From Trichoplax adhaerens (Eukaryota > Animalia > Placozoa), in assembly GCF_000150275.1 (NCBI RefSeq), contig NW_002060947.1, forward strand, positions 157,401 to 221,400: DNA of 64,000 nt, in the 5' to 3' direction. The notes under the pieces were generated by a model. That model was not told the DNA's origin and made no database searches. It saw only the letters and a list, made by a program, of their open reading frames with translations. Made by a program: the position numbers and the translations under genes. Within the stretch, counting starts at the first letter, position 1, and every line of letters starts with the position of its first letter. This document shows positions 2,171 through 64,000 of this stretch, piece after piece.

Positions 2171-3050
2171 TATTGCTTTCATGCTGCTATGAGTAATTGA
2201 AGCCATACCTCGGCCATTATTTACAAGCGATTCTGGATGGTGTCGTCTGTATTATGGTCCTATCCTTATATCTTCTTACAGCTGTGCAATCATTCTAGTT
2301 GCCTTAGCCATTATTCGCTATCTAAATATAGCCTGTTATCATCAATATTTCTATTATGTAACGCGTAAAAGTATGTTGATAGCGACGTTGGCTGCATGGA
2401 TTATTGCCGCATTATGCACTGGTCCTACAATTATTGGTTTTTGGGGTAAATTGGATTATGACAGTCATTACGGGTTATGCTCATCTTCTTATGGTCAAAA
2501 AATGGATACCAATCATTTCACATATAATATAATTATTTTTACTACCTTCTCTTGTATTTTCCATCTTGTCACTAGTTATTGTTATTGTCAAATTTATCGA
2601 TGCTTGCGATTAATTAAATTTAGAAAAAGTTATAATCCAGCTAATGATGTTCGCCATCAAACTTATACAATTGCCATTAATGATAGAGTTTCATCGTAAC
2701 ACATTCCTTGGGCACAACGAGAATACAGAATCACCTTGATATTATTTATTATATTTATGGGCTATATTATAACATATGGTCAAACCGCAATTGTTATTAT
2801 TTTTCAAGTTGCTGGTATCGTTACGGCAAGTAGTCTTCGATCCTGCATCCTATTCACTGTGATGTGCTCTAATAGTGTTGCCAATCCGTTTATATTATTA
2901 CTGAGTAGTCGAAATTATCGCAGTATTTTCATAGCAAAATTACATTCTCTTCTACGTTCATATATTTTGTTAACTCGTCGACGAATAGCAGTTAGAGGTA
3001 TTACTCCAACATATACACAAATACAAAGAATGAAGCTGTTTACGACCTAA
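2171..3050 (+). pseudogene. GPCR cluster gene 1, exon 2 of a class A GPCR pseudogene (exon 1 not found in window)
   Basis: Acceptor ...gatag at 2169-2170, same phase as paralogs. Frame reads IAFMLL*VIEAIPRPLFTSDSGWCRL...AIIRY...FWGKLDYD...C...SNSVANPFILL. In-frame stops TGA 2190-2192 and TAA 2697-2699. The track ORFs 2373-2699 and 2736-3050 are the same frame. Confidence 0.85.
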
Positions 3051-37864: not shown

Positions 37865-40137
37865 ATGTTATCCCAAGAATTAAATAATAACCATACAAAC
37901 TTTTCCGTTACAATTCTTTCGAAGAATTTCAAGACAGTGTTCATACCATTATGGCTTATATCGATTATCATAGCAACCTTAGGAAGTGCTATGATATTAT
38001 ATGTAATACTTCGAAAATATCACCTAAAGATACCACCTACAGATGTGATGATTCTAAATGTGACCATAGCCGACTATCTATTCGTATTGTCGAAGTAATA
38101 TAATTGTTGACATAAGATATGAAGTGAAACTAATTCGGGTAGTTTAAAATTAGATGACTTCAGTGCCACACTTACTAATGTACTATATCATAAAATGCCT
38201 TTAAATATTGATACGGGTTGCCGTTTAAAATTATAGATTATGAATTGCAAGTTCTGCTTTTAAAGGCCAACAATTTCAGTAGTCTTACATTTCTTCAGTA
38301 ATTTTTTGAGAATTATAGAGTACATTATTAGGAAACTGCCAACTTAGCATATTTTACTGTTTAAGCAACATTCAGAATTCACAGAAAAATTCTTAGACTG
38401 TAAAAATACTAATACTGATAGAAAATACTAATCGGTTTTAATGCCTCGAGATTTAAACTTTTTTAAATATAATTCAATGCTGTCAATGTATCAAGAATAA
38501 CTACGTAGCAATTAAAATTGTTAATTGCAATAGATCGATAAGAATGGATATAGTACAAAATTATTAAATTCTTTGATAGTCCGCAATAAGATTAATATTC
38601 TTGGTTGTAAAATGTTTAGTTCGTGGTAAATACTCTGACTTGTATAAGGAACGTATTTAATATTTAACATTATTAAACTAAGCATTATTTTTGAAATAGT
38701 GTTACCTTCATGCTACTTTTGGCCTGGAGTGTATTTAAGAAACCCCTTTTTCGCTCAAATACATTCTTATGTAGATTTTTCTTCATTTCGGTGTCATTTT
38801 TTTTGGGCTAGCACGGTAATTTTGGCTACTCTAGCCTTAATGCGATACTCTAGAATTGTAAAGACAAATCAACTTCGCCAATTATTTTCGAAGCAAAACA
38901 GCATTCTTATTGTATGCTTTACGTGGATTTTGCCAATATTGGCTGTATTACCTCCCTTATTTGATTTCTTGGGAGAGCTTGTATTTGTTGAGAATTATGG
39001 TGGGATTTGTCTTCTATCACTTGATCCTCCCCATCATGTTAGTAATATTACTTATAATATTATAATCTTTGGAATATGTTTTACTTTTGCAAATATAATC
39101 ATTTTTTATTGTTATTATCGAATATAAAAAATGGTTCATGAAAGTTCTAATCGTGTTAGAAGAACTAATGATACAGATAGCCATGATTCAGGAACATATA
39201 CAAATGATAACAAGAATAGATTGTTAAGAAAACCAAATGATAGCAGACTAAATGCTGTATTATTCGTGGTCTCTCTTGGATATACAGTATCTTATGGGCC
39301 TATTACAATATCATCGTTTCTGAGAATGATGGGATTGGTAAAACTGAACTTAGAGCAGTCACTCATATGTTTCACTTTAATGTACTTAAACAGTATGATA
39401 AATCCGTGGGTGTGTTACAGTGTTATATACTGTATTACAGTAGAAATATCTATGCTAGGATAATTCTGTTAGACTATCCTTATTTAGTTAACTTCTAATT
39501 TGGATATACTGTGTTTTAATATTGTACTGACTTTTTATGACAGTGACACTTATACACATACTGAAATTAATAGTTATAATAGGGAATGCAAATCATCTAC
39601 TTACAGTTCGAATCATTGTGATTGTAATTTACTTATGGTAGATTGTAAATTATCGTGGAAAAGTTCCGTGATAGGACATATCGTAATCTGACTATTCTGT
39701 ATTAGTCATTACATGTCTATATTCGTAAATACTGTTGTCTGCATTAAGGGAGCAGTAGCTAAACTTAATATCTAATTCAGTAAATGATTCCGAGGTTAAT
39801 TATATTAACTATGACTCATGAATTATTGAGGAATAGTATATAAATGCAGTATGTCGTGAAATAAAGAGGATTCTTAAACTTAGTGTTTAACGTAAAATAC
39901 GAGGCGTTTAAGTCTTTGTGTAGTCTGCTAGTAGAGCAAAAGTGTTTGTGATAGTGCAGATGTCGTTCCTTGATACGTGGTTTAAGGAAGTGACTTATTG
40001 ATCGTATATTACGTTATCTTGTTGCAAAGCTGTTTTGTGACAGGGTGTTACTACTAAGTTGCCGAAGGTATCGAAAGTTTATATTAAGCAACTTTGGCAC
40101 AATCCGACGTAGAAGTTCCGTGGTTTCTCTGCCATAA
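37865..40137 (+). pseudogene. GPCR cluster gene 6 (exons 37865-38094, 38700-40137): frameshift, stop and LTR insertion
   Basis: Donor AA|gtaata at 38095, acceptor atag at 38698-38699. Frameshift in the T8 run 38797-38804. TAA 39125-39127 where paralogs read RIYK. Element 39413-40042 is inserted after NPWV; the frame resumes LLLSCRRYRKFILSNF...LP* (TAA 40135-40137). Confidence 0.9.
39413..40042 (+). mobile_element. Solo-LTR-like element, family I (630 bp), inserted in GPCR gene 6 TM7
   Basis: TGTTACA...TGTGACA termini. Perfect TSD GGGTG (39408-39412 and 40043-40047). ATGACTCAT 39811-39819, TATATAAA 39837-39844, AATAAA 39860-39865. Confidence 0.9.
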
Positions 40138-50231: not shown

Positions 50232-53026
50232 ATGCCGTTAGAAGAATTATATTACTATCCTAATCAGTGTTATGTGAAGACAAATATTGGATTTTGTAAG
50301 CTTAAAAGCGTATCAGCAATGGTATAAGCCGCATGATTTTATCTTTACACAACTTTAAATAAATATCAATAAATGTCTCCAGATTCCGAAAGTTCACTTA
50401 TATCTTCGGAAAAGTACAAGTTAATGATTTTTTATTAATATTTTTCATAGTTAATTAGCTTCTACTATCGATTCTTTTGTTTTTGACTAGGTAACTATCT
50501 AGACAATTCGTAACATTATTAAATATTAATAAAAGTGAATAATCTCACTCAAATTTCCGCATAGGTATAAAAAATGGGAGGTAATAGCACATAGTAAATT
50601 CGAGTTTTTAGTGAGATGATATTGATAATTAATAAAGGAAGCAATTGTTGGTATATTATTGTTACAAATCGAAATTTGCAATGAGAAATGCTTAACTCGT
50701 GTAAAAAATTAGCACAATAGATTGATTGTCAGATTAGTCCTCTCCTACGTTTACCTATAGTGCAACTCGAAATACTGACGATCTCGCGTCGCCAAGGAGT
50801 ACAATAACAGCAAGGTATACGTCTTCAGACTAAAGTTAATATAAATCTGAACTGTAACGCAAAACCAGTAGATTCAAATACATTTATATAAAAGTCAGCT
50901 ACCAGTGGTCAGAAGGTATTAAGGAAGCATAATATTACCCTTGAAAAGATTTATGGAATGCTAGATAGCAGTATTGTTAACAAAATATCATGCTTTATTA
51001 TAATTTTATCCGTCAAAAAAGATAAGAATTTATCTAAGAAGAGTAATTTCCTGACAGGCATGCGTTATTGAGCATTTGCAGTACAAATTACGATGAAATA
51101 TTGAAACTAGGTACCGTTTACGATCAAATTGCGTTTTACTAGATAATTTTTAAGCCTCTCGCTTGAATACACACTGATCGTAAATAGCGCTCATATACTT
51201 CAAAAGTTATTGGAGCGAAAGATACTTCAGTGGAAGTGATTGACCGAAGCCGATTTCGTAGCAAGTTATTTTTGTTTTCCATACGAACCGGCTAGGTATT
51301 ATTCCTCCGATCGTAGCAATAATATATGGATTTGAGTAATTTAAGGTTTTTTCGGTAAAGTAATAGCCAGCTCAATTAAGTAATATGTAATACGGATAGT
51401 CGGGATATAAAATTAAAAATATTAACCTATCTTTTCCCTTAATTAAATGGCAAAGCTAAATTTAGAAATTGGCTTCGAAAGAATTACTAAAAGACTGCCA
51501 GAAACAAAATTCAAAAGTAGGTATTTTATATTTGTAGTAAACTTCTCTGATCATTTCAGTGTTTTCATATTTGTAAATTTGACTATAGTAACCCAGCACA
51601 TTCATAAAAGCCAGTATTTTGTCGTAAAATCTCATTAAGTATCATACTATATATTATTCGAATTAACGTAATATAGACTAGCCTACGAACAGTTAAGATA
51701 TGTGAAATAAATTGAAGCTAAGAATTATAAGTGGCAAATCTATAGCTCAACATTATTTCTAAACGCTTTATTTGCTGTACGATATCCGTAATCCAGATTT
51801 ATATGCTCTTAGAAGTTCATAGTTTTTACACTTCTATGCTTGATTTAATTTACGAAAAGTAAGGAAATCTATTTAAATATAACGCAATTATCAGGTTAGA
51901 TAAAAAGAAATTTGTGAAAAATTAGCTTTTCTTATTTATATATCATTATGCAATTACTGCATTCAGCTACCTATACTATCAAAATTCACCTAAATAAATA
52001 GATTCTCGTAAAATCTCCATCTGTATATTTGCAGTTAAGATGTTTGAAGGTGTTGCCATAGGCTCTGAGTTATTACCTATAAATCATTTTGTAATTTCAC
52101 CGCTATTGTTAGCTGAAGAAGCCATAAATTTTGGCTTTTACCTGACACACTGAAGTAGCTGTGGTTAGAAATCACACACAATATCATTTAATCGAAAGGA
52201 TATTAAAGGTATCAGATTTTAAAAATCTTATGAGTCTACGGTATCGTTTGAAAAGAAATGTACTTTTCCATTTTATATAATTTAATTATTTATAGGGAAT
52301 TACTTACTCTGATGCTCCAAAACAACAAACTACTACTGGATGTTCTATAGTTATAGGGATGTTCATAACTTTTGATTTATCAAACTTCATGAACTAATTC
52401 CTCATATTATGTTTTTTTCTTTAGTGCTGCTTAGATTTACCTACGAGGGTACCATAGATGCAAACAATTATCTTAAAATTTTACTGTTATGCTCTGACAT
52501 TACAGTAAAATTTTCAACTGAAAAATAGAATTTAACAATAGTAAAAGCATTCTAAAGCTAGAGTGCATTTAGCGTATTGGTTCTTATTCTACTAGGTGTA
52601 GTAAAGGACTAAAAGTAGAGTCCTTTATAGCTTTTAGTAGGTAACTAGTATTATTTTACTATAGAAAATACCTATAGAAAGATAGCGTCTTTAAGTTTTA
52701 CCCTGCCAAATCATCATGTCGCCATCTTTTCTTTTTCATTATTTTACAAGGCATTATATAGATTACTACAGAAGTAGCCCTAGAGCAATTAATTAATTTA
52801 AAGAAAGGGCGTTTGATCGTTTATTCAAATTGTAAATGAATTTGAATTAATAACAAAACCCTATCTATAGAGAAAGGGGATTTATAACATGACAGTAAAG
52901 TACTGCAATGTAGTATATAATCGTATAGTTACCGTACAACCTGACGCTAAAACATCAACTGTCTATACTAAGCGATACTAATGTCAGAAAAGCAGTCGTA
53001 GTAGTCATATAAAATTTCTTGATAAT

Positions 53027-53622
53027 CGATTACTGTGATCTTTATAAAATCCGGATTTTTCGGATTCGGATTCCGGAACTGGTCGAATTTATCTGTTATA
53101 ATTTATCTGTTTTAATTTTTGGATTTTAGTTTATGGAAAATATCGTAAGAGTTGATTTTTCAAATTTAAACTTTTTGTTATGAATTTGAAACTTTGGAAT
53201 TTTATGACTTGACATGAAAGTCACATTAGGAAAGTTTAGTTCGGAAAATAGAAAATAAGATGGAAAATGGTAGAGGTTGTGTTGATTGTTAGGTGGTTAG
53301 ACTGTTATTTTTATGACTAAATCTTGATATTTAAAGGTTAATTTTAGAATTTTAGAATGTATTAATGATAGAAATTATGTTAGAAGTGAAGTTTGATATA
53401 TTTTATAGTTGATTTGCTGGTTTTACATTGTTTTGTAAGTAAGGAAATCATAGGGTAAATTGTGCCTGAACTTTGAATGACTTTTGTTTTCTTAAATGGT
53501 GCAAAGTAGTTTTCTAAAATGGATCTTAAGAGCGATTGATTAGTAAATGTTTAGTTTTAAATATGACGGCTCTACGAAAGCGATTACTGTGATCTTTATA
53601 AAATCCGGATTTTTGGGATTCG
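53027..53622. repeat. 42-bp direct repeats 554 bp apart bracketing strand-skewed sequence
   Basis: CGATTACTGTGATCTTTATAAAATCCGGATTTTT(C/G)GGATTCG at 53027-53068 and 53581-53622. Confidence 0.75.
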
Positions 53623-55197
53623 AATTTAGCCTATAAATGATAGTGCAATTAGAAAATTTAGAGGGAGAGGAGAAGAAGATCCTTTCGAAGAAATTGTTTA
53701 ATTTAAAAGGCCTTTGGGGTCGAACTGTCGTAAGTTAAAACGCTCTTCTTTTTGAAAGGTTGTTTGGTTATTGACAGTTTTTAAGTCTGCCACTTATTTT
53801 ATTAATACTTAAAATTAAGTATTTGTAAGGTTATTCGGTTTATACTTCTCTCCATTTTTTTTGTAATAAATTGTTGATCGATTTCCCTAAATTTTATTTG
53901 GTGTCAAAGTTTCATTAAGTCGACCGGAGTGCAATGATAGTAGAATCAAAGTTTATTAAAGTTTTGCAGCTTGATCTCTACGCTTTTCATTTTATTACAT
54001 AGGTAAAACTATGTACATGATAAAAATTGTACCATAATATGCTTATTTACCCCAATCTATATTATGTAATCTCTTGTTTTGATAAAATAGATGAGTAATT
54101 TTGATTAATAGCGAGAGTTTTCAATGTTTCATGCTAAGACAAAGATTATTTAGCTTAATGAAATGAATATCGCTATATCTGCAGGTTACATTATTAGTTT
54201 TTATTATAATAATCAGTGAACAAAGAGCATGTGGTAATTGAATAATTGACTTTTCTACGATTAAGTGGTCATATGTCAACTTTAAATTATCTTTGTCGGA
54301 TTAATATGATCCGACGATGATATCAATTTGTATAAAATATGACCTTATATTGTAAGTAGTCTAATACTAACATGTTTATCATCAACTAATCTAGTTGCCA
54401 TGTAATGAAATCTGCTATTTGATTTAAAGGTTAAATAGCAATCTTTTATTGTCAATTTTGGTATGGAAATGATTTTGTTTAATATTTGTATGTGGGCATT
54501 GTATCAGATTTTTAATACCAAGGGAAATAAAATATCTGATGATCTAAGAAATACAAATATTTAATTAGTGCTGGTTTTATTGACAACAAAAATGCCTAAG
54601 AGATTGATTGACTTTTGCTATTGTTAACTTATTAAGAAATTAATAACATAGAGTAAACATAAAGATGACAGGCTGTAAATTTTTTTCATTTCTCTGAAAT
54701 TTATAAATTCAATTCCAGTAAGATCATTAAAACAACACTGATGAATAGATTTAAATTCTTTGGTGCCTTAAAAGATAATCTATTATTATTAAAATAGAAT
54801 TTTATTGTTTATTGTTATCGACTCCAGGTGTACATTCTGAATTTGTATGGCATTATTTTTAATATCCTAGTATTAAATCTGGTTATCTGTTCTTTTCCTA
54901 AAAAATCTGCTTCGCCAAGTCGCAGTTATCAAGAAATATCTGAATTTCAATTATATTAAAAAAAATTACTGGGCTTTGGTCAAACATTTCGAGAAGAAAT
55001 TCTAGTGGTTTATCTTAGTTGAAACGTTACGATCCTATCAAGTAATTTATTTGATCTACGAGTCATCCTTAGCAAAAAAGAAATAGAAATCTTTTTGACT
55101 TATTTCAGTAGTCTGATCAAGATTTTAAACGTTCATAAATAGAGAGTATTTGATAGTCTTTCTTGGTAAATTATCTTATAGTTACGAATAAGTGAAG

Positions 55198-56470: not shown

Positions 56471-57214
56471 GAAGTTATATTAGTAAGAAATTGATTATAG
56501 TTAGAAAGGCACCTATTTTGTTTCAGCTTAGTCTTAAAAAAGTGAGAATGTGTAACGGTAGCTTATCTTTCAATGGCAATTGCTGTAATTCACTTTATTA
56601 GCAAGACAAGAAATTTACAATCAAGGTATTAAAAGTTTAATTGATGGCCTATTACTGGCTAAAGTGAGTTCTCTTTTGACGGTATTGGTACTGACTACTA
56701 ATGCCAACGATAAGTAAACGGAATGATAATCATATTTCGTTTCATGAAATCTTTTTAGCAATTTCTTGTTTCTTTTGATATAATCGTCATTACAGTATAA
56801 AATATTCTAAAATTGATTATATTATTACTAGCCTTGAATAAATACAATCTGATTTATGCTAATAATATGCGCATAGATGTCTTACTGCTATACTTACCGT
56901 ATCAGATCTTTCAAAAACTATCGTTAGAATTCCATTTTACATGAGACTTAGTATGAGTGACAGATGTTCAATTGGGTATCGTTTTGCTTTCTATTTTAAT
57001 CTTAGTAATACTTGTACGTATACATTCTGTACTAACATTCAGGTCCAATCTATTTTCTCTATATTTATTAATCATTGCAATTAGCTTAAATTCCAGCCTG
57101 GAACTTATTTTAATAAATAAATAGGTTAACTTTTCGAAAGCACTAATGAACTTTCAATCGCTATTACAATTTTGGAATAACTTAGAAAGCGATTATTGAA
57201 GATAATTGCGCTCT

Positions 57215-57844
57215 TGTGACAGTGTTATATACTGTATTAGAATAGAAATATCTGTGTTAGGATAATTCTGTTAGCCTCTCCTTGTTTAGTTAACTTCTAA
57301 TTAGGATATACTGTGTTTTAATAGAGCTCTGACTTTTTATGATAGTGACATATATACGCATGCTGAAATTAATAGTTATAATAGGGAATGCAAGTCATCT
57401 ACTTACAGTTCGAATCATTTTGATTGTAATTTACTTATGGTACATTGTAAATTATCGTGGAAATGTTCCCTGATAGGACATATCGTAATCTGACTATTCT
57501 GTATGAGTCATCAGATGTCTATGTTCGTAAATACTGTTGTCTGCATTAAGGGAGCAGTAGCTAAAATTATTATCTAATTCAGTAAATGATTCCAATGTTA
57601 ATCGTACTAACTATAACTCATGAACTATTGAGGAATAGTATATAAATACAGTATATCGTATGATAAAGAGGATTCTTAAACTTAGTGTTTAACGTAAAAT
57701 ACGAGGCGTCTAAGTCTTTGTGTAGTCTACCAGTAGAGCAAAAGTGTTTGTGATAGTGCAGATATCGTTCCTTGATACGTGGTTCAAGGTATTGACTTAT
57801 TGATCGTACATTACGTTATCTTGTTGCAAAGCTGTTTTGTGACA
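57215..57844 (+). mobile_element. Solo-LTR-like element, family I (630 bp)
   Basis: Colinear with 39413-40042. TGTGACA...TGTGACA termini. Flanks GCTCT/ACTCT give a 4/5 TSD. Confidence 0.88.
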
Positions 57845-58073
57845 ACTCTATAATTACTGTTTAGTCATCTGCCGTGACATTAGATCTATAAAATACATAA
57901 ATGCTCACATACACTTTGATTTTTTGCTCAATTTTACGATTCAGTTTGGGTCAGTCACGAACTAGGATGCCGTGGAATTGAGCAATGCGAAGCAAATTGC
58001 TTGTGTGTAAAGCAGGTTAAGAAGGAGTAAATGGGTCTAAAGAACTTAAGAATTGCATATTGATATTACTGCC

Positions 58074-58625
58074 TGTAATATATACCAATCACGAAATTCC
58101 AAATCTTAGAAAAATAAGGGCTTTATTAGATCTTATACAAAGATTAACTACACGTAGCTCTACTCTAGCCGAATACTACTACCAAAGACTTCTAGAACGA
58201 ACTAACTGAATGATCTAAAGTTGCATGCTTTTATACTTTCCGTAGCATTCGCAGCTATAATCCGCATGGCAACCTTTTACCTTATTTTACACGTAGCTAA
58301 ATTATTCTTAGTAACACTATTCTACTGTGGACCATCAGTAATCCAATATGGATACGACTACAGTACTTACGTAGACATTATTCATACCAGCCAAAGTACA
58401 ATGAATTAACCATATCCTAATATATGATTTACAGTTCTATTTTTACCTATTGCCTTATTAGTAACTCAATACTTTACTGTATATAGTCATCTGTACTCTA
58501 GCATAGAGTCTATGCCACTACGGTCTATAGTTATGGCTACCAAGTATCTCTTAGGATAAATATCTACCGTATATTATACTAAACATGACTAACAGTCTAC
58601 AATCACATTACTAAGTTACATTACA
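58074..58625 (-). mobile_element. Solo-LTR-like element, family C (552 bp)
   Basis: Perfect 6-bp terminal inverted repeat TGTAAT...ATTACA. Perfect TSD CTGCC (58069-58073 and 58626-58630). Inverted homolog of 36830-37381. Confidence 0.88.
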
Positions 58626-60790
58626 CTGCCACAAATATTCAAGCATGTGTTGATTGTAGTTATTTATTCAATTTTACAATTTAATTTAGTTCAGTCACGT
58701 TGTGGGATTAAGTAGTGGACCGCAAATATCTTGTTTGCGCGGCCAGATGAGCAGTAAATGGGCTATAAATTTAAGTCTTTGGCAATAGATCTAGCTAACA
58801 GTTGACCTGGTGTCTAAGTCAGCAGTTATGTTCATCTAGTATTATGCAAATTGCGATCGAAATTTATGATAGCTATAGTAAATTATACAAGACTAAATTT
58901 AAAATATGGAGGCTTTCGAAATTTAGGACGATATCTATAGTTTCATCAGTTTTAACGCAATTTACGGGTAATGGGATAGTTATTTGCTAATACAAAAGTC
59001 TATCGCAGCTCGATGAGGTATAGCGCGAAACGCTAGCTATAAAACTATTAGTATTTTTCGGAATCTGACGATGATATGGTTTAAAATATCCTTACAGAGA
59101 TGTTAGCGTGTTTGAATGGGTTAACACAATAAGACATTTATAAGCAAGTCATAAAATACATTTAACTTTCCACTAAGATATTATTTTAAACTGAGATTTT
59201 TGCAAATAAATCATAGCTATAGTTAGCAAAGAAATTAATTGCAATTACTGCAGTTTACTTAAAAAATAATCGATCAGGATTCTTCGACCTACGTCGGAGG
59301 GCCTACCAATAAACATGCTGCCAAGGAAAACTAACTAAGCACTTAATTGATAGTCCATTCCTTATATACCGTTAGAGAATATAAACGGTGCACCGAAGAT
59401 GAATGGCTTAATGTAATCTATAGATGCTGGTTAAGGATTCAGATTAGAATATTCAATATAGATAAGTATACTGATAACTAATAACAACACCAATTAAAGC
59501 ACTAATTAATTCGTTAATTTGAGTTCCCGAGCTCAGCAAAAAATAGCAAGTAGCACAAGGTTCCCTATACATAGTGGTGTAAAGTACATAATTTCTCCAA
59601 TTTCTTATGCTTCCCGTAATAAACGATATGATAAGGTACGACCAGCGCTTTGTAATTGGTCATCAGAAGTTAATACTTATGATTTTGCTAACAACTAGCC
59701 ATTGTAGTCTACTATACCCTAATTCTTATAAACTAAATGGATTATGAATTTAAAACTCTTATAACGGAGTACGGTACTACGCCACATACCAGTGTGAACA
59801 TGACCGTATCTACCTACCTATCATCAGACAACAGTACATAGTAAAATTGGACGTAAAATTATTTTAAACTAACAACTTAGAATTAAAAATTGCATTAGTA
59901 TTAGGAGAAAACCTCAGTTTATTATAAATCTTTAAAAAAATCTTACAAAATCACTTAATAAAATAAAAAAGATAGGATTGCCGCTTTGAATAAACGAACT
60001 ATCAAATACACGACATCACGCACCACTTTGAGGAAAATACTAATCTTTATCTGCTTATTTCAATAACTTGAACTCTTAACTACCGAACTATGCTACCTTA
60101 TATATATATATGCATTATGCAGGGCAGTTGATAGTATCAGAGTATCAATTCATCACTCTAAAGCATCCTAATTAGGCTAATAATTAATTATATATAATAA
60201 GATAAATTCTATCCTAGATGCCCGAAATTACGATATAAATAATAATTATAGTTTAGCTATAAAATTAATCTTACTACGACACACAGAACCTAACTATGAA
60301 AATTCACTTAGGCTGATAGATCTTATTTTGAGTTAGAACCCAGATCAAAATCTTTTGAATTCATACTGCATTCAATTACAAAGTAAAATGACTAGTGCTG
60401 TATTTCATGATCAAAATTAGCTGCCAAGTTTATCATAATTGAAAAGCAAATATTATAATAACTAAATATATCATCAAATTGCAATTATTCTATGCATGAT
60501 TCATAATAAAATCATGTTACCGGATATTGACAAATTCTAAACCGAATAAAGAAGTCGGGTTAACAATATTTACATTCGTAGAATCATCAAATCAAAACAT
60601 ATTATCTATGTAAATTAATCACAATCACATGCTAAAGCACAAGATATATGAAGTATATATCTATCTGATAGTCTAAATGCAGTCTAATCACTAAACATCG
60701 CTAACTTCTCTACGGATGAGATAGCACCGTAATAACACAATCACTAATAGCATTTTGTTCAAAGTATAATCTGACTGCATCATATTTTAA

Positions 60791-60840
60791 NNNNNNNNNN
60801 NNNNNNNNNNNNNNNNNNNNNNNNNNNNNNNNNNNNNNNN
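60791..60840. other. Assembly gap (50 N)
   Basis: Run of N. Confidence 0.99.
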
Positions 60841-62418
60841 GACTTCCTAGGATACATGAAATATTGGCTATTTATGACGTACGTAAATTGGCTATTTTTG
60901 ACGTACGTGAGGCATATTCGAAATTTAAAAATTATTCACTTATTACTACAATAAATGGGTCTGATTGCCAGTTCTGGCAGCATTAATCAAGAGTAAAAAG
61001 TTGATCTCGAGCTACTACTACTATATAAAATAGTGTAAATTTATAGTATCCGAAAGAATCGACTAAATTGAAGTGGAATTTTACGTAAATAACGGAGAAT
61101 GACTAAATTGAATCCATGTAGACTTCCTAGGAATACTGTACATGAAATATTGGCTATTTATGACGTACGTAAATTGGCTATTTTTGACGTACTTAAGGCA
61201 TATTCGAAATTTAAAAATTATTCACTTATTACTACAATAAATGAGTTTGATTGACAGTTCTGGCAGCATTAATCAAGAGTAGAAAGTTGATCGAGCTACT
61301 ACTACTATATAAAATAGTGTAAATTTATAGTATCCGAAAGAATCGACTAAATTGAAGTGGAATTTTACGTAAATAACGGAGAATGACTAAATTGAATCCA
61401 TGTAGACTTCCTAGGAATACTGTACATGAAATATTGGCTATTTATGACGTATGTAAATTGGCTATTTTTGACGTACTTAAGGCATATTCGAAATTTAAAA
61501 ATTATTCACTTATTACTACAATAAATGAGTTTGATTGCCAGTTCTGGCAGCATTAATCAAGAGTAAAAAGTTGATCTCGAGCTACTACTACGATATAAAA
61601 TAGTGTAAATTTATAGTATCCGAAAGAATCGGCTAAAATTGAAGTGGAATTTTACATAAATAACGTAGAATGACTAAATTGAATCCATGTAGACTTCCTA
61701 GGAATACTGTACATGAAATATTGGCTATTTATGACGTACGTAAATTGGCTATTTTTGACGTACTTAAGGCATATTCGAAATTTAAAAATTATTCACTTAT
61801 TACTACAATAAATGAGTTTGATTGCCAGTTCTGGCAGCATTAATCAAGAGTAGAAAGTTGATCTCGAGCTACTACTACTATATAAAATAGTGTAAATTTA
61901 TAGTATCCGAAAGAATCGGCTAAATTGAAGTGGAATTTTACATAAATAACGGAGAATGACTAAATTGAATCCATGTAGACTTCCTAGGAATACTGTACAT
62001 GAAATATTGGCTATTTATGACGTACGTACATTAGCTATTTTTGACGTACTTAAGGCATATTCGAAATTTAAAAATTATTCACTTATTACTACAATAAATG
62101 AGTTTGATTGCCAGTTCTGGCAGCATTAATCAAGAGTAGAAAGTTGATCTCGAGCTACTACTACTATATAAAATAGTGTAAATTTATAGTATCCGAAAGA
62201 ATCGGCTAAACTTGAAGTGGAATTTTACGTAAATAACGGAGAATGACTAAATTGAATCCATATAGACTTCCTAGGAATACTGTACATGAAATATTGGCTA
62301 TTTATGACGTACGTACATTAGCTATTTTTGACGTACTTAAGGCATATTCGAAATTAAAAATTATTCACTTATTACTACAATAAATGAGTCTGATTGCCAG
62401 TTCCGGCAGGGTTAATCA
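60841..62418. repeat. Tandem satellite, ~286-bp unit, ~5.5 visible copies
   Basis: GACTTCCTAGGA starts at 60841, 61121, 61405, 61692, 61978 and 62265. Units are near-identical. The array abuts the gap. Confidence 0.97.
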
Positions 62419-62582
62419 TTAAGCTTATTCATGGATATACAACTGCTAAGTAGACGTTTTCCAAATATCATTTATACTATGGTATAATCGTATAAACCGA
62501 AGGGGCCTAATGAATCAAGCGTGTTCAATATATATAAATAAATATAATCCACATCAAGAAATGTAAACGTATTGGCTGAAGC

Positions 62583-63530
62583 ACAGTACAATACAGTATA
62601 CAGTACAGTACTGTACGCGTATAGGCAGTAATACAATAATATCATTAATTTATTTATGTATGAATTTGTTCCACTTGGTTCTAATACAATACAGTACTGT
62701 ATATCTGTCAGGAGATATCTATCCATTACGATGCAGGGACTGCTGAATGGAAGCGATTTCTTCTGGATACTAGTATCTAGAATCGAGATGGTAGAAGGGC
62801 AGTTTTTTTCTTCCCCAAGCTCATGGGTTGATGTCTGTCTCTCTTATTAAGGAGTCATTAGGAAGAAACTGTTGACACTTATGATCACGGTAAAGTTAAA
62901 GTTTAAGAGTTGTTTCCAAGGCATCGCAAACCTCGAATCAACCTATAGATGCTTTGGTTGTTTCCCATACTATGTACTATAGAACCGAGGCGAATGAATC
63001 GAATTCAGTAAGTCTGTCCCATCCGATGTCTCTGACTGCTATTACTGTACTGTACAGTGTACAGTCTATGTACAGTACATTGTACAGTACTGTAGTGGAG
63101 GGTAACACTACAGTATTTGAAAATTCCTACTGGGTGAGTATGGGATTACTGCCATTTCCAAATTGGGGGATCTCGAGGTATTTAGCATCGTGTTTAGTGC
63201 GGTAGTTTCAGCCAAGTAGCAGTAAGAACTTTTTACTTATAATAACTGGCGGGAATATAATGGGATTCGTAAGGACCATGCACTAACTGTAAAACAGTAC
63301 TACAGTAATTGTACTGTAGTTGTTCAGTAGCATGGCCTACAGTACAGTACAGTACAGTACTTCAACACTGGTGTTAGTCCGGTCACGCTACACTACAGTA
63401 TACTGTAGAGTACTGTACTGTACACTGTGTCCAATTGACTGTTGAAAAATGGTCCACTTGTACGACTGCGCATGTTCTACCTCACATGACTGTACTGTAC
63501 TGTGCGTACAGTCATGTGTGGTACTGTGCT
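62583..63530. repeat. Dense TACAG/CTGTA (TACAGTA) motif patches
   Basis: Clusters at ~62583-62616, 63043-63115, 63286-63425 and 63488-63527, e.g. TACAGTACAGTACAGTACAGTAC. Confidence 0.75.
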
Positions 63531-63590
63531 CGACGTGCACACAAACCAGTAAGACCTGCGCTACCCTTCAACGCATGAATAAAAACAAAG

Positions 63591-64000
63591 ATGGCTGCAT
63601 GCAGACTGCAGGTAATCCGATGGAGAAATTTCCATTCAATGCTAGGTGTATCTTATCGATATTTAAATAATAGAGGTACAAGCCATCATCCGAGCTTTTG
63701 TAGATATCTTCATTTTAGCTCGATCAAGTATGATAACAAAGAAATGAATGAGAAAGGAGAGAATAAAGCAACAGCTCCAAGCCTGAATACCACGGCTGGT
63801 CGTTTCGGATCCAAAATTCGACCTACCCCATTACAGTTACCTTTTGAAGAATTTATCACATTTCGTAAGAAATTAAAAGTCAGAAGTAGGATTGCCGGAG
63901 TTCCTTTTGGCCTGTTAGGTTTAACAGCTTCATCAATGGTATCAGCTTACATGCTTCCAAACATGTTTGATACACCACCGGATGAGATTCAACCGATACG
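63591..64000 (+). CDS. PAM17: Pam17-like mitochondrial import motor subunit precursor (5' part; runs off the window)
   Basis: Stop-free frame from AAG ATG GC at 63591 to the window end. MAACRLQVIRWRNFHSMLGVSYRYLNNRGTSHHPSFCRYLHFSS is an Arg-rich, acid-free presequence. It is followed by LPFEEFITFRKKLKVRSRIAGVPFGLLGLTASSMVSAYMLPNMFDTPPDEIQPI, resembling the Pam17 L-x-W-x-x-F-F-x-L-R-K block, TM1 and loop. Recognition is from memory, not a search. Confidence 0.72.
   Translation, partial: MAACRLQVIRWRNFHSMLGVSYRYLNNRGTSHHPSFCRYLHFSSIKYDNKEMNEKGENKATAPSLNTTAGRFGSKIRPTPLQLPFEEFITFRKKLKVRSRIAGVPFGLLGLTASSMVSAYMLPNMFDTPPDEIQPI

What the first reader, a model, noticed from the sequence alone, without database searches (positions are those of the whole stretch)
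63591..64000. Unannotated Pam17-like gene in an animal genome
Seen: a 136-codon open frame, absent from the ORF track because it has no stop in the window. It has a typical mitochondrial presequence ending in an R-Y-L-H-F-S-S cleavage-like motif, then LPFEEFITFRKK, a Gly-rich TM helix and ...EIQPI. Known: Pam17 is a two-TM subunit of the TIM23-associated import motor (PAM) characterised in yeast and usually described as lacking a mammalian ortholog. Its conserved region starts L-x-W-x-x-F-F-x-L-R-K, passes a G-x-D-P loop and ends with DYYGEKI. Inference: this early-branching animal retains Pam17, so the subunit would be ancestral to opisthokonts and lost later in animal evolution.
Basis: partly seen in the sequence, partly recalled or inferred. 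Interest (0 to 1): 0.78.

Follow-up and report, generated by a model that had tools for sequence, protein, structure and literature searches.

The report
Already-catalogued Pam17 in a simple animal
This is a real gene for Pam17, a helper of mitochondrial protein import best known from yeast, in what is likely a placozoan; it is already in public annotations, and a 2017 table already lists Pam17 in Trichoplax, a sea anemone and single-celled relatives of animals but not in bilaterians.

Summary
Real gene, right family, not new. Window 63591-63999 is the first coding part of a Pam17 gene. The exon alone scores Pfam PF08566 at E 0.02; the public 188-aa model that contains it scores E 1.1e-34. One run's contig reads on into G-M-D-P, and the full product has TM2 and D-D-Y-Y-G. 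'Unannotated' is wrong: 188-aa and 239-aa models are in NCBI, nr and EukProt. Contamination is unlikely: read depth and GC3 match the neighbouring GPCR genes, the closest named relatives are coral and Nematostella proteins (53-56% core identity, against 22-34% for fungal-type rows), and animal-type loci have an intron in the same codon. The evolutionary inference (opisthokont ancestry, later loss in animals) fits, but Fukasawa et al. 2017 (PMC5455965, Table S1) already list Pam17 in Trichoplax, Nematostella, Capsaspora and two choanoflagellates, blank in 11 of 11 bilaterians and all non-opisthokonts. That paper's text never mentions it, and 2021 and 2024 reviews still say 'yeast-specific', so the point is known but overlooked. 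I add sponge, ichthyosporean and coral examples. Function in animals is untested. The scan's index held no earlier Pam17 finding.

The parts
63591..63999 (+). First coding part (likely exon 1) of the Pam17 gene: codons 1-136 plus one base
   Evidence: Open frame; identical to residues 1-136 of the 239-aa public model but for one residue; covered by one contig in each of 4 of 4 RNA-type runs laid (only X19 is on record as RNA)
63591..63731 (+). Predicted mitochondrial presequence, residues 1-47
   Evidence: No Asp or Glu before residue 48; 6 Arg/Lys and 7 Ser/Thr in the first 45; hydrophobic moment only 0.42. TargetP and MitoFates were not available
63702..63719 (+). R-x-L-x-x-S processing-like motif (residues 38-43)
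   Evidence: The only match to R-x-[FLI]-x-x-[STG] in the first 70 residues; the same pattern is at residue 37 of both close relatives P0003 and P0004. Reading it as an MPP plus Oct1/MIP site is recalled knowledge
63744..63746 (+). Internal Met52, where the shorter 188-aa public model starts (it lacks the presequence)
   Evidence: RNA-type contigs begin upstream of 63591, which favours the longer start
63822..63998 (+). N-terminal part of the Pam17 domain (PF08566)
   Evidence: Pfam match begins at residue 27 of P0002, i.e. residue 78 of the full protein
63891..63947 (+). Predicted transmembrane helix 1 (residues 101-119)
   Evidence: Kyte-Doolittle 19-residue mean 1.50; inside helix 85-121 of the AlphaFold2 model, pLDDT over 90
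63999..64000 (+). Likely exon-intron boundary in the Leu codon before G-M-D-P; phase unresolved
   Evidence: A contig of run X14 leaves the window after 63999 and reads on into the G-M-D-P codons; relatives have an intron in this codon

Best explanation
The stretch is the first coding part of this animal's own Pam17 gene, likely inherited from the common ancestor of fungi and animals, and its product is predicted to be a two-helix mitochondrial inner-membrane protein that would assist the TIM23 import motor as yeast Pam17 does. Shown here: the open frame, the Pfam family, a transcript-type contig running into the G-M-D-P exon, and orthologues in corals, a sea anemone, a sponge and unicellular holozoans. 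Predicted: a cleavable leader (residues 1 to about 47), a hairpin of two membrane helices (about 101-119 and 136-160) joined by the G-M-D-P loop in the intermembrane space, and matrix-side helices carrying the invariant R194, D-Y-Y-G and Y-R-x-W residues. Inferred from yeast only: recruitment to TIM23 through Tim50, and help for precursors whose mature part is hypersensitive to low membrane potential, before Hsp70 pulling starts. The host is likely a placozoan (Trichoplax), and the gene was likely lost on or near the bilaterian stem.
For: Pfam E 1.1e-34. ESM Atlas: the three top feature hits of the full-length protein are Pam17 clusters at 0.94, and its best structural hit is a Pam17 cluster at TM 0.55. 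AlphaFold2 helices 85-121, 141-171, 173-193, 216-238, mean pLDDT 77.6. Named orthologues: Orbicella, Acropora, Oscarella, Salpingoeca macrocollata, Microstomoeca, Sphaeroforma, Pigoraptor, Nematostella, Pocillopora. ML tree of 42 rows: holozoan side against fungal side 100/99, query on the holozoan side among the animal rows. Nesting in three fungal subclades is rejected (p-AU 1.7e-57, 1.5e-12, 4.1e-29), and the TM1-to-GxDP span is 35-38 residues in 25 of 25 holozoan-side rows (query 36) against 27-32 in 17 of 17 fungal-side rows. Intron in the same codon in 4 of 4 genomic loci showing the junction; 30 of the 150 listed representatives end exactly there. DNA depth 50, 37 and 63 at the exon against about 15-38, 18-33 and 32-70 over single-copy bins left of the gap in 3 of 4 runs. 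GC3 0.31 against 0.25-0.33 for 7 GPCR frames. Partners Tim17, Tim23, Tim44, Tim50, Pam16 and Pam18 are listed for Trichoplax in PMC5455965 Table S1. Yeast mechanism: abstract of PMC5223606, passages of PMC8346121.
Against: No functional or localisation data for any animal Pam17 were found. The AU test did not reject the query as sister to all fungal rows (p 0.168) or grouped with choanoflagellates (p 0.141), and its place among animals has no starred support. The fourth DNA run (X17) did not cover the exon at 95% likeness, and no listed contig bridges the 50-N gap. The leader's hydrophobic moment is weak (0.42). 11 of the 17 fungal-side rows are unnamed and were assigned by me from sequence and tree position. 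The species is inferred, and I could not check that P0002 is UniProt B3RX92.
Confidence: 0.85

Rival explanations
1. True Pam17 orthologue whose job has shifted: in holozoans it sits in the inner membrane but acts outside the TIM23 motor, or with other partners.
For: Holozoan and fungal rows differ in both loops: the intermembrane-space loop is longer, and the matrix loop before D-Y-Y-G is shorter (13-17 against 18-28 residues) and lacks the fungal N-P-x-P-D stretch. Core identity to fungal-side rows is only 22-34%.
Against: Same helices, G-x-D-P, R194, D-Y-Y-G and Y-R-x-W in both groups; the whole TIM23-PAM set is listed for Trichoplax.
Confidence: 0.1
2. The segment right of the gap comes from a fungus or protist mis-joined into the scaffold, or the gene is a recent horizontal import from a fungus.
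For: It lies 3 kb beyond a 50-N gap and a tandem repeat; local GC is higher (0.39 against about 0.30); blastn found no repeat shared across the gap; no listed contig bridges the gap.
Against: Depth of the same order as the GPCR side in 3 of 4 DNA runs; 20 of 24 listed runs, 7 studies and two organism labels hold the stretch; nearest named relatives are cnidarian; fungal nesting is rejected and loop lengths are holozoan; shared intron codon; two close relatives at 54-56% identity over the whole exon.
Confidence: 0.03
3. A decayed or non-coding remnant that only resembles Pam17.
For: The exon alone is under Pfam's cut-off; base 64000 may disagree with the reads; 3 of 4 substitutions seen in RNA-type contigs change a residue.
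Against: Two intact public models; contigs in 4 of 4 RNA-type runs, one shown reading into the next exon in frame; the three residue changes lie in codons 28, 49 and 53, before the conserved domain, and the one at codon 81 is silent.
Confidence: 0.02

Closest known systems
Trichoplax adhaerens Pam17 (B3RX92_TRIAD) and Nematostella Pam17 (A7S783_NEMVE) as listed in PMC5455965 Table S1
   Same: The window's gene is likely the Trichoplax entry itself (inferred; accessions of the window's own protein are withheld).
   Different: Nothing shown. The paper's main text has 0 mentions of Pam17, it samples no sponge, coral or ichthyosporean, and it gives no gene structure or function.
RefSeq/GenBank coral proteins named 'presequence translocated-associated motor subunit pam17, mitochondrial-like' (Orbicella XP_020619846.1, Acropora XP_044168851.1, KAK2563493.1)
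   Same: 53-56% core identity, same loop lengths, intron in the same codon in a locus 89-95% alike to the Orbicella cluster's representative.
   Different: The query has a 3-residue insertion before the acidic D-D-Y-Y-G motif and possibly a one-base shift of the intron.
Fungal Pam17 (S. cerevisiae PAM17; Pfam PF08566)
   Same: Presequence-like leader, two hydrophobic helices, G-x-D-P, D-Y-Y-G, Y-R-x-W.
   Different: F replaces the fungal W at the start of the domain, the inter-helix loop is longer, the matrix loop shorter, identity 22-34%. Function is tested only in yeast. The S. cerevisiae sequence itself was not identified among my rows.

Membership tests
Pam17 (PF08566) | Profile match above the curated cut-off over most of the model | tested here: met
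   120.1 bits against 25.4, profile 14-161 of 165, for P0002; the exon alone gives 15.2 bits
Pam17 (PF08566) | Two transmembrane helices joined by a G-x-D-P loop | tested here: met
   Hydropathy peaks 1.50 (window from 101) and 1.97 (window from 142); helices in the AlphaFold2 model; G138-M-D-P141. Predicted, not measured
Pam17 (PF08566) | C-terminal D-Y-Y-G ... Y-R-x-W motif | tested here: met
   D207, Y209, G210, Y219, R220, W222 invariant or nearly so in 37 sequences; G210 is followed by D-T-I, not E-K-I
Pam17 (PF08566) | Cleavable N-terminal mitochondrial presequence | tested here: inconclusive
   Basic, acid-free 47 residues and a conserved R-x-L-x-x-S, but weak amphipathicity; no targeting predictor or import assay available
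Pam17 (PF08566) | Orthology by tree rather than domain sharing alone | tested here: met
   Falls with named holozoan Pam17 proteins, split from the fungal side 100/99; exact place among animals unresolved
TIM23-PAM import motor subunit | Inner-membrane location with both termini in the matrix | not testable with these tools
   Yeast topology from passages of PMC8346121
TIM23-PAM import motor subunit | Physical recruitment to TIM23 via Tim50, and support of low-potential import | not tested
   Yeast result from the abstract of PMC5223606; no partner sequence of this animal was on hand, so no complex was predicted
TIM23-PAM import motor subunit | Partner genes present in the same genome | not testable with these tools
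   No genome is held for the window; the partners are listed for Trichoplax in PMC5455965 Table S1

The most novel reading that the evidence does not exclude
Pam17 was not lost in bilaterians but diverged past profile recognition, or survives in unsampled bilaterian groups among the unnamed hits; the holozoan sequences gathered here, whose loops differ from the fungal ones that seeded the family, are then the bridge to the missing human counterpart of Pam17.
Probability: 0.07. Interest if true: 0.7.

Novelty: already known. Interest (0 to 1): 0.2.

Why it matters
It corrects a statement still printed in reviews that Pam17 is yeast-specific (PMC8346121, PMC11675802; passages read), and it places the loss near the origin of bilaterians. 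Nematostella or a choanoflagellate could then be used to ask what Pam17 does in an animal cell and what replaced it in humans, a question PMC11675802 raises. The phylogenetic fact itself has been in a supplementary table since 2017 and in automatic annotations, so the gain is one of emphasis and wider sampling.

Tried and rejected
No genome is held for the window, so the sequence beyond 64000 could not be read. PDB sequence search with a 37-row profile: 4 hits, best E 1.4, none related. Foldseek against PDB: 0 matches at E 0.001 or better. VIA-align against 48,161 chains: none at Z 8 or more, best 6.7, generic helical hairpins; a chain of the yeast TIM23 complex (9j9b_D, Z 6.0, rmsd 3.1 over 67 residues, 4% identity) is within that noise and I draw nothing from it. 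So no remote bilaterian homologue was found by fold, which does not exclude one; no library of predicted cellular structures was on hand. The Atlas search with a GPCR frame gave animal clusters but did not name the host phylum. Paper searches: Pam17+Trichoplax 1 paper and Pam17+Nematostella 1 paper, both PMC3097184, where the terms are unrelated; Pam17+bilateria 0; Pam17+holozoa 1, PMC7050145, which calls it a component of the fungal complex; some searches were seen as listings. I found no main text stating the bilaterian loss in these ten searches; subscription journals are not covered. PMC1190294 and PMC2397324 are not held. Two look-ups in the scan's earlier findings gave nothing on Pam17. 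The first 90-row tree was a quick tree only and served to pick rows. Run X17 showed no cover of the exon at 95% likeness; that is not evidence of absence. No complex prediction was run. An earlier count said 12 bilaterians; the table has 11.

Full report
Observation. The ATG at 63591 opens 136 codons without a stop up to the window edge. The exon alone gives Pam17 as the top Pfam hit but under the cut-off (E 0.02). No genome is held, so the rest of the gene was taken from public proteins and read contigs.

The whole gene. A search with the exon returned 3 proteins of 5 candidates. One, P0002 (188 aa, on an 8.57-Mb contig), is identical to the window from Met52 on and continues L-G-M-D-P, a second hydrophobic helix and D-D-Y-Y-G; it scores PF08566 at 120.1 bits, E 1.1e-34. 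Its cluster holds P0005, 239 aa, which starts at the window's ATG and differs at residue 53 only. Both are in NCBI, nr and EukProt, so the gene is annotated. In 4 of 4 RNA-type runs laid, one contig covers the exon from upstream of the ATG to 63999, and the loose end shown for run X14 encodes the G-M-D-P stretch in frame. Only X19 is on record as RNA, and contigs show neither strand nor level.

Anatomy. The first 47 residues hold no acidic residue; R-x-L-x-x-S occurs once, and again at the same place in both close relatives P0003 and P0004; the hydrophobic moment is weak, 0.42. Hydropathy gives two helices, about 101-119 and 136-160. AlphaFold2 on a 37-row alignment gives helices 85-121, 141-171, 173-193 and 216-238, mean pLDDT 77.6, with a low-confidence leader. 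This matches the two-helix, both-ends-in-matrix layout described for yeast Pam17 (PMC8346121, passages). No solved relative was found by sequence or fold.

Is it the animal's own? The rest of the window is an AT-rich array of rhodopsin-family GPCR genes (7 of 7 frames tested match 7tm_1). The exon lies beyond a 50-N gap and a 286-bp tandem repeat. In 3 of 4 DNA runs its depth (50, 37, 63) is of the same order as single-copy bins left of the gap; the fourth run did not cover it at 95% likeness, and no listed contig bridges the gap. GC3 is 0.31 against 0.25-0.33 for the GPCR frames. 20 of 24 listed runs from 7 studies hold the stretch. The host is likely a placozoan: this is inferred from about 90-126 million letters of contigs in the DNA runs, 30% GC, the GPCR array and the tree, not read from a record.

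Relatives. The representative search found 294 proteins at E 0.001 or better and listed 150. Of 20 representatives that I picked for look-up, 10 gave an organism-bearing label: Orbicella, Acropora, Oscarella, Salpingoeca macrocollata, Microstomoeca, Sphaeroforma, Pigoraptor, a record prefixed 'Clim' (Corallochytrium by recall), Paraphysoderma and Blastocladiella. A profile search added Nematostella, Pocillopora and further fungi (7 of 14 hits named). In a 42-row ML tree (LG+G4; rows picked by me from about 90 full-length hits plus named ones; 11 of 17 fungal-side rows unnamed), holozoan and fungal sides split at 100/99, and the query sits among the animal rows without starred support for its exact place. 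Nesting it in three fungal subclades is rejected, but placing it as sister to all fungal rows (p 0.168) or with choanoflagellates (p 0.141) is not. Loop lengths are diagnostic: 35-38 residues from G103 to G138 in 25 of 25 holozoan-side rows, query 36, against 27-32 in 17 of 17 fungal-side rows; core identity is 53-56% to corals and Nematostella and 22-34% to the fungal side.

Intron. Of 16 related loci, 4 show the end of the first exon as a separate genomic locus (L005, L009, L015, L016; L010 repeats L009), and all have a phase-2 intron in the Leu codon before G-M-D-P. 30 of the 150 listed representatives end exactly at this codon, and 10 cover only the part from the last-exon boundary on. The window has G at 64000, which with the public model implies phase 1. 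But the DNA contigs of 3 of 3 covering runs also stop at 63999. A one-base intron slide with an edge effect of the tool, or a wrong base in the assembly, both remain open. The protein sequence is unaffected.

What is known. Fukasawa et al. 2017 (PMC5455965; I read passages of the main text and all 54 rows of Table S1 as text, without cell colours and without Figure 1) fill the Pam17 column for 12 of 54 species: 7 fungi, Capsaspora, Monosiga, Salpingoeca rosetta, Trichoplax (B3RX92) and Nematostella (A7S783). It is blank for 11 of 11 bilaterians, 3 microsporidia, 3 amoebozoans and 25 other non-opisthokonts. The main text never names Pam17, and reviews of 2021 and 2024 call it yeast-specific and note no human homologue (PMC8346121, PMC11675802; passages). 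PMC3097184 says it was found in opisthokonts (passage). In ten searches I found no main text that states the bilaterian loss. Supplements of other papers were not searched and may hold similar tables.

Mechanism. By orthology the protein would be imported and cleaved, inserted as a helical hairpin in the inner membrane, recruited to TIM23 by Tim50, and would help precursors whose mature part needs a high membrane potential, between presequence passage and Hsp70 pulling (yeast result, abstract of PMC5223606; PMC12998175, passage). None of these steps is tested in an animal. The different loops leave room for changed partners.

Verdict. A real, correctly identified, native Pam17 gene; annotated already, and its distribution tabulated in 2017 though overlooked since. 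Already known; interest 0.2.

Noticed in passing
window 2193-56470: Tandem array of at least nine rhodopsin-family GPCR-like frames, most on the + strand with a short separate TM1 exon; 7 of 7 tested match 7tm_1. The frames at 2193-3050 and 38648-39463 are each split by an in-frame stop and may be pseudogenes or assembly errors.
   Followed up: partly
window 60791-62418: A 50-N gap followed by 5.5 copies of a 286-bp unit, 97% alike; read depth there is low, so it looks local, not a high-copy satellite.
   Followed up: partly
window 62580-63530: Upstream region dense in short CAGTAC/GTACTG repeats and palindromes (21 of the window's 44 hexamer hits lie in 62400-63590). Many other DNA and RNA-type contigs carry the same short motif; possibly a promoter-associated element of this genome.
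   Followed up: partly
window about 52500-54300 and 57100-58900: Two stretches with summed contig depth in the thousands to tens of thousands in all 4 DNA runs: high-copy interspersed repeats; no clear terminal inverted repeats.
   Followed up: partly
window 63575-63670: An out-of-frame ATG 16 bases upstream of the Pam17 start opens a short overlapping frame that ends at 63670; three of the four RNA-type contigs begin upstream of it.
   Followed up: no
window 63999-64000: Possible one-base shift of an otherwise conserved intron, or a wrong base in the assembly.
   Followed up: partly
L005 8906-9932 (-) and L016 7850-8284 (-): Both loci have similar frames, aminotransferase-like by my recall of the motif, just downstream of Pam17 on the opposite strand: a conserved gene neighbourhood in that unnamed animal-side clade.
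   Followed up: no
P0002 versus P0005: The shorter public model starts at Met52 and so lacks the presequence; targeting predictions on it would miss the mitochondrial signal.
   Followed up: yes
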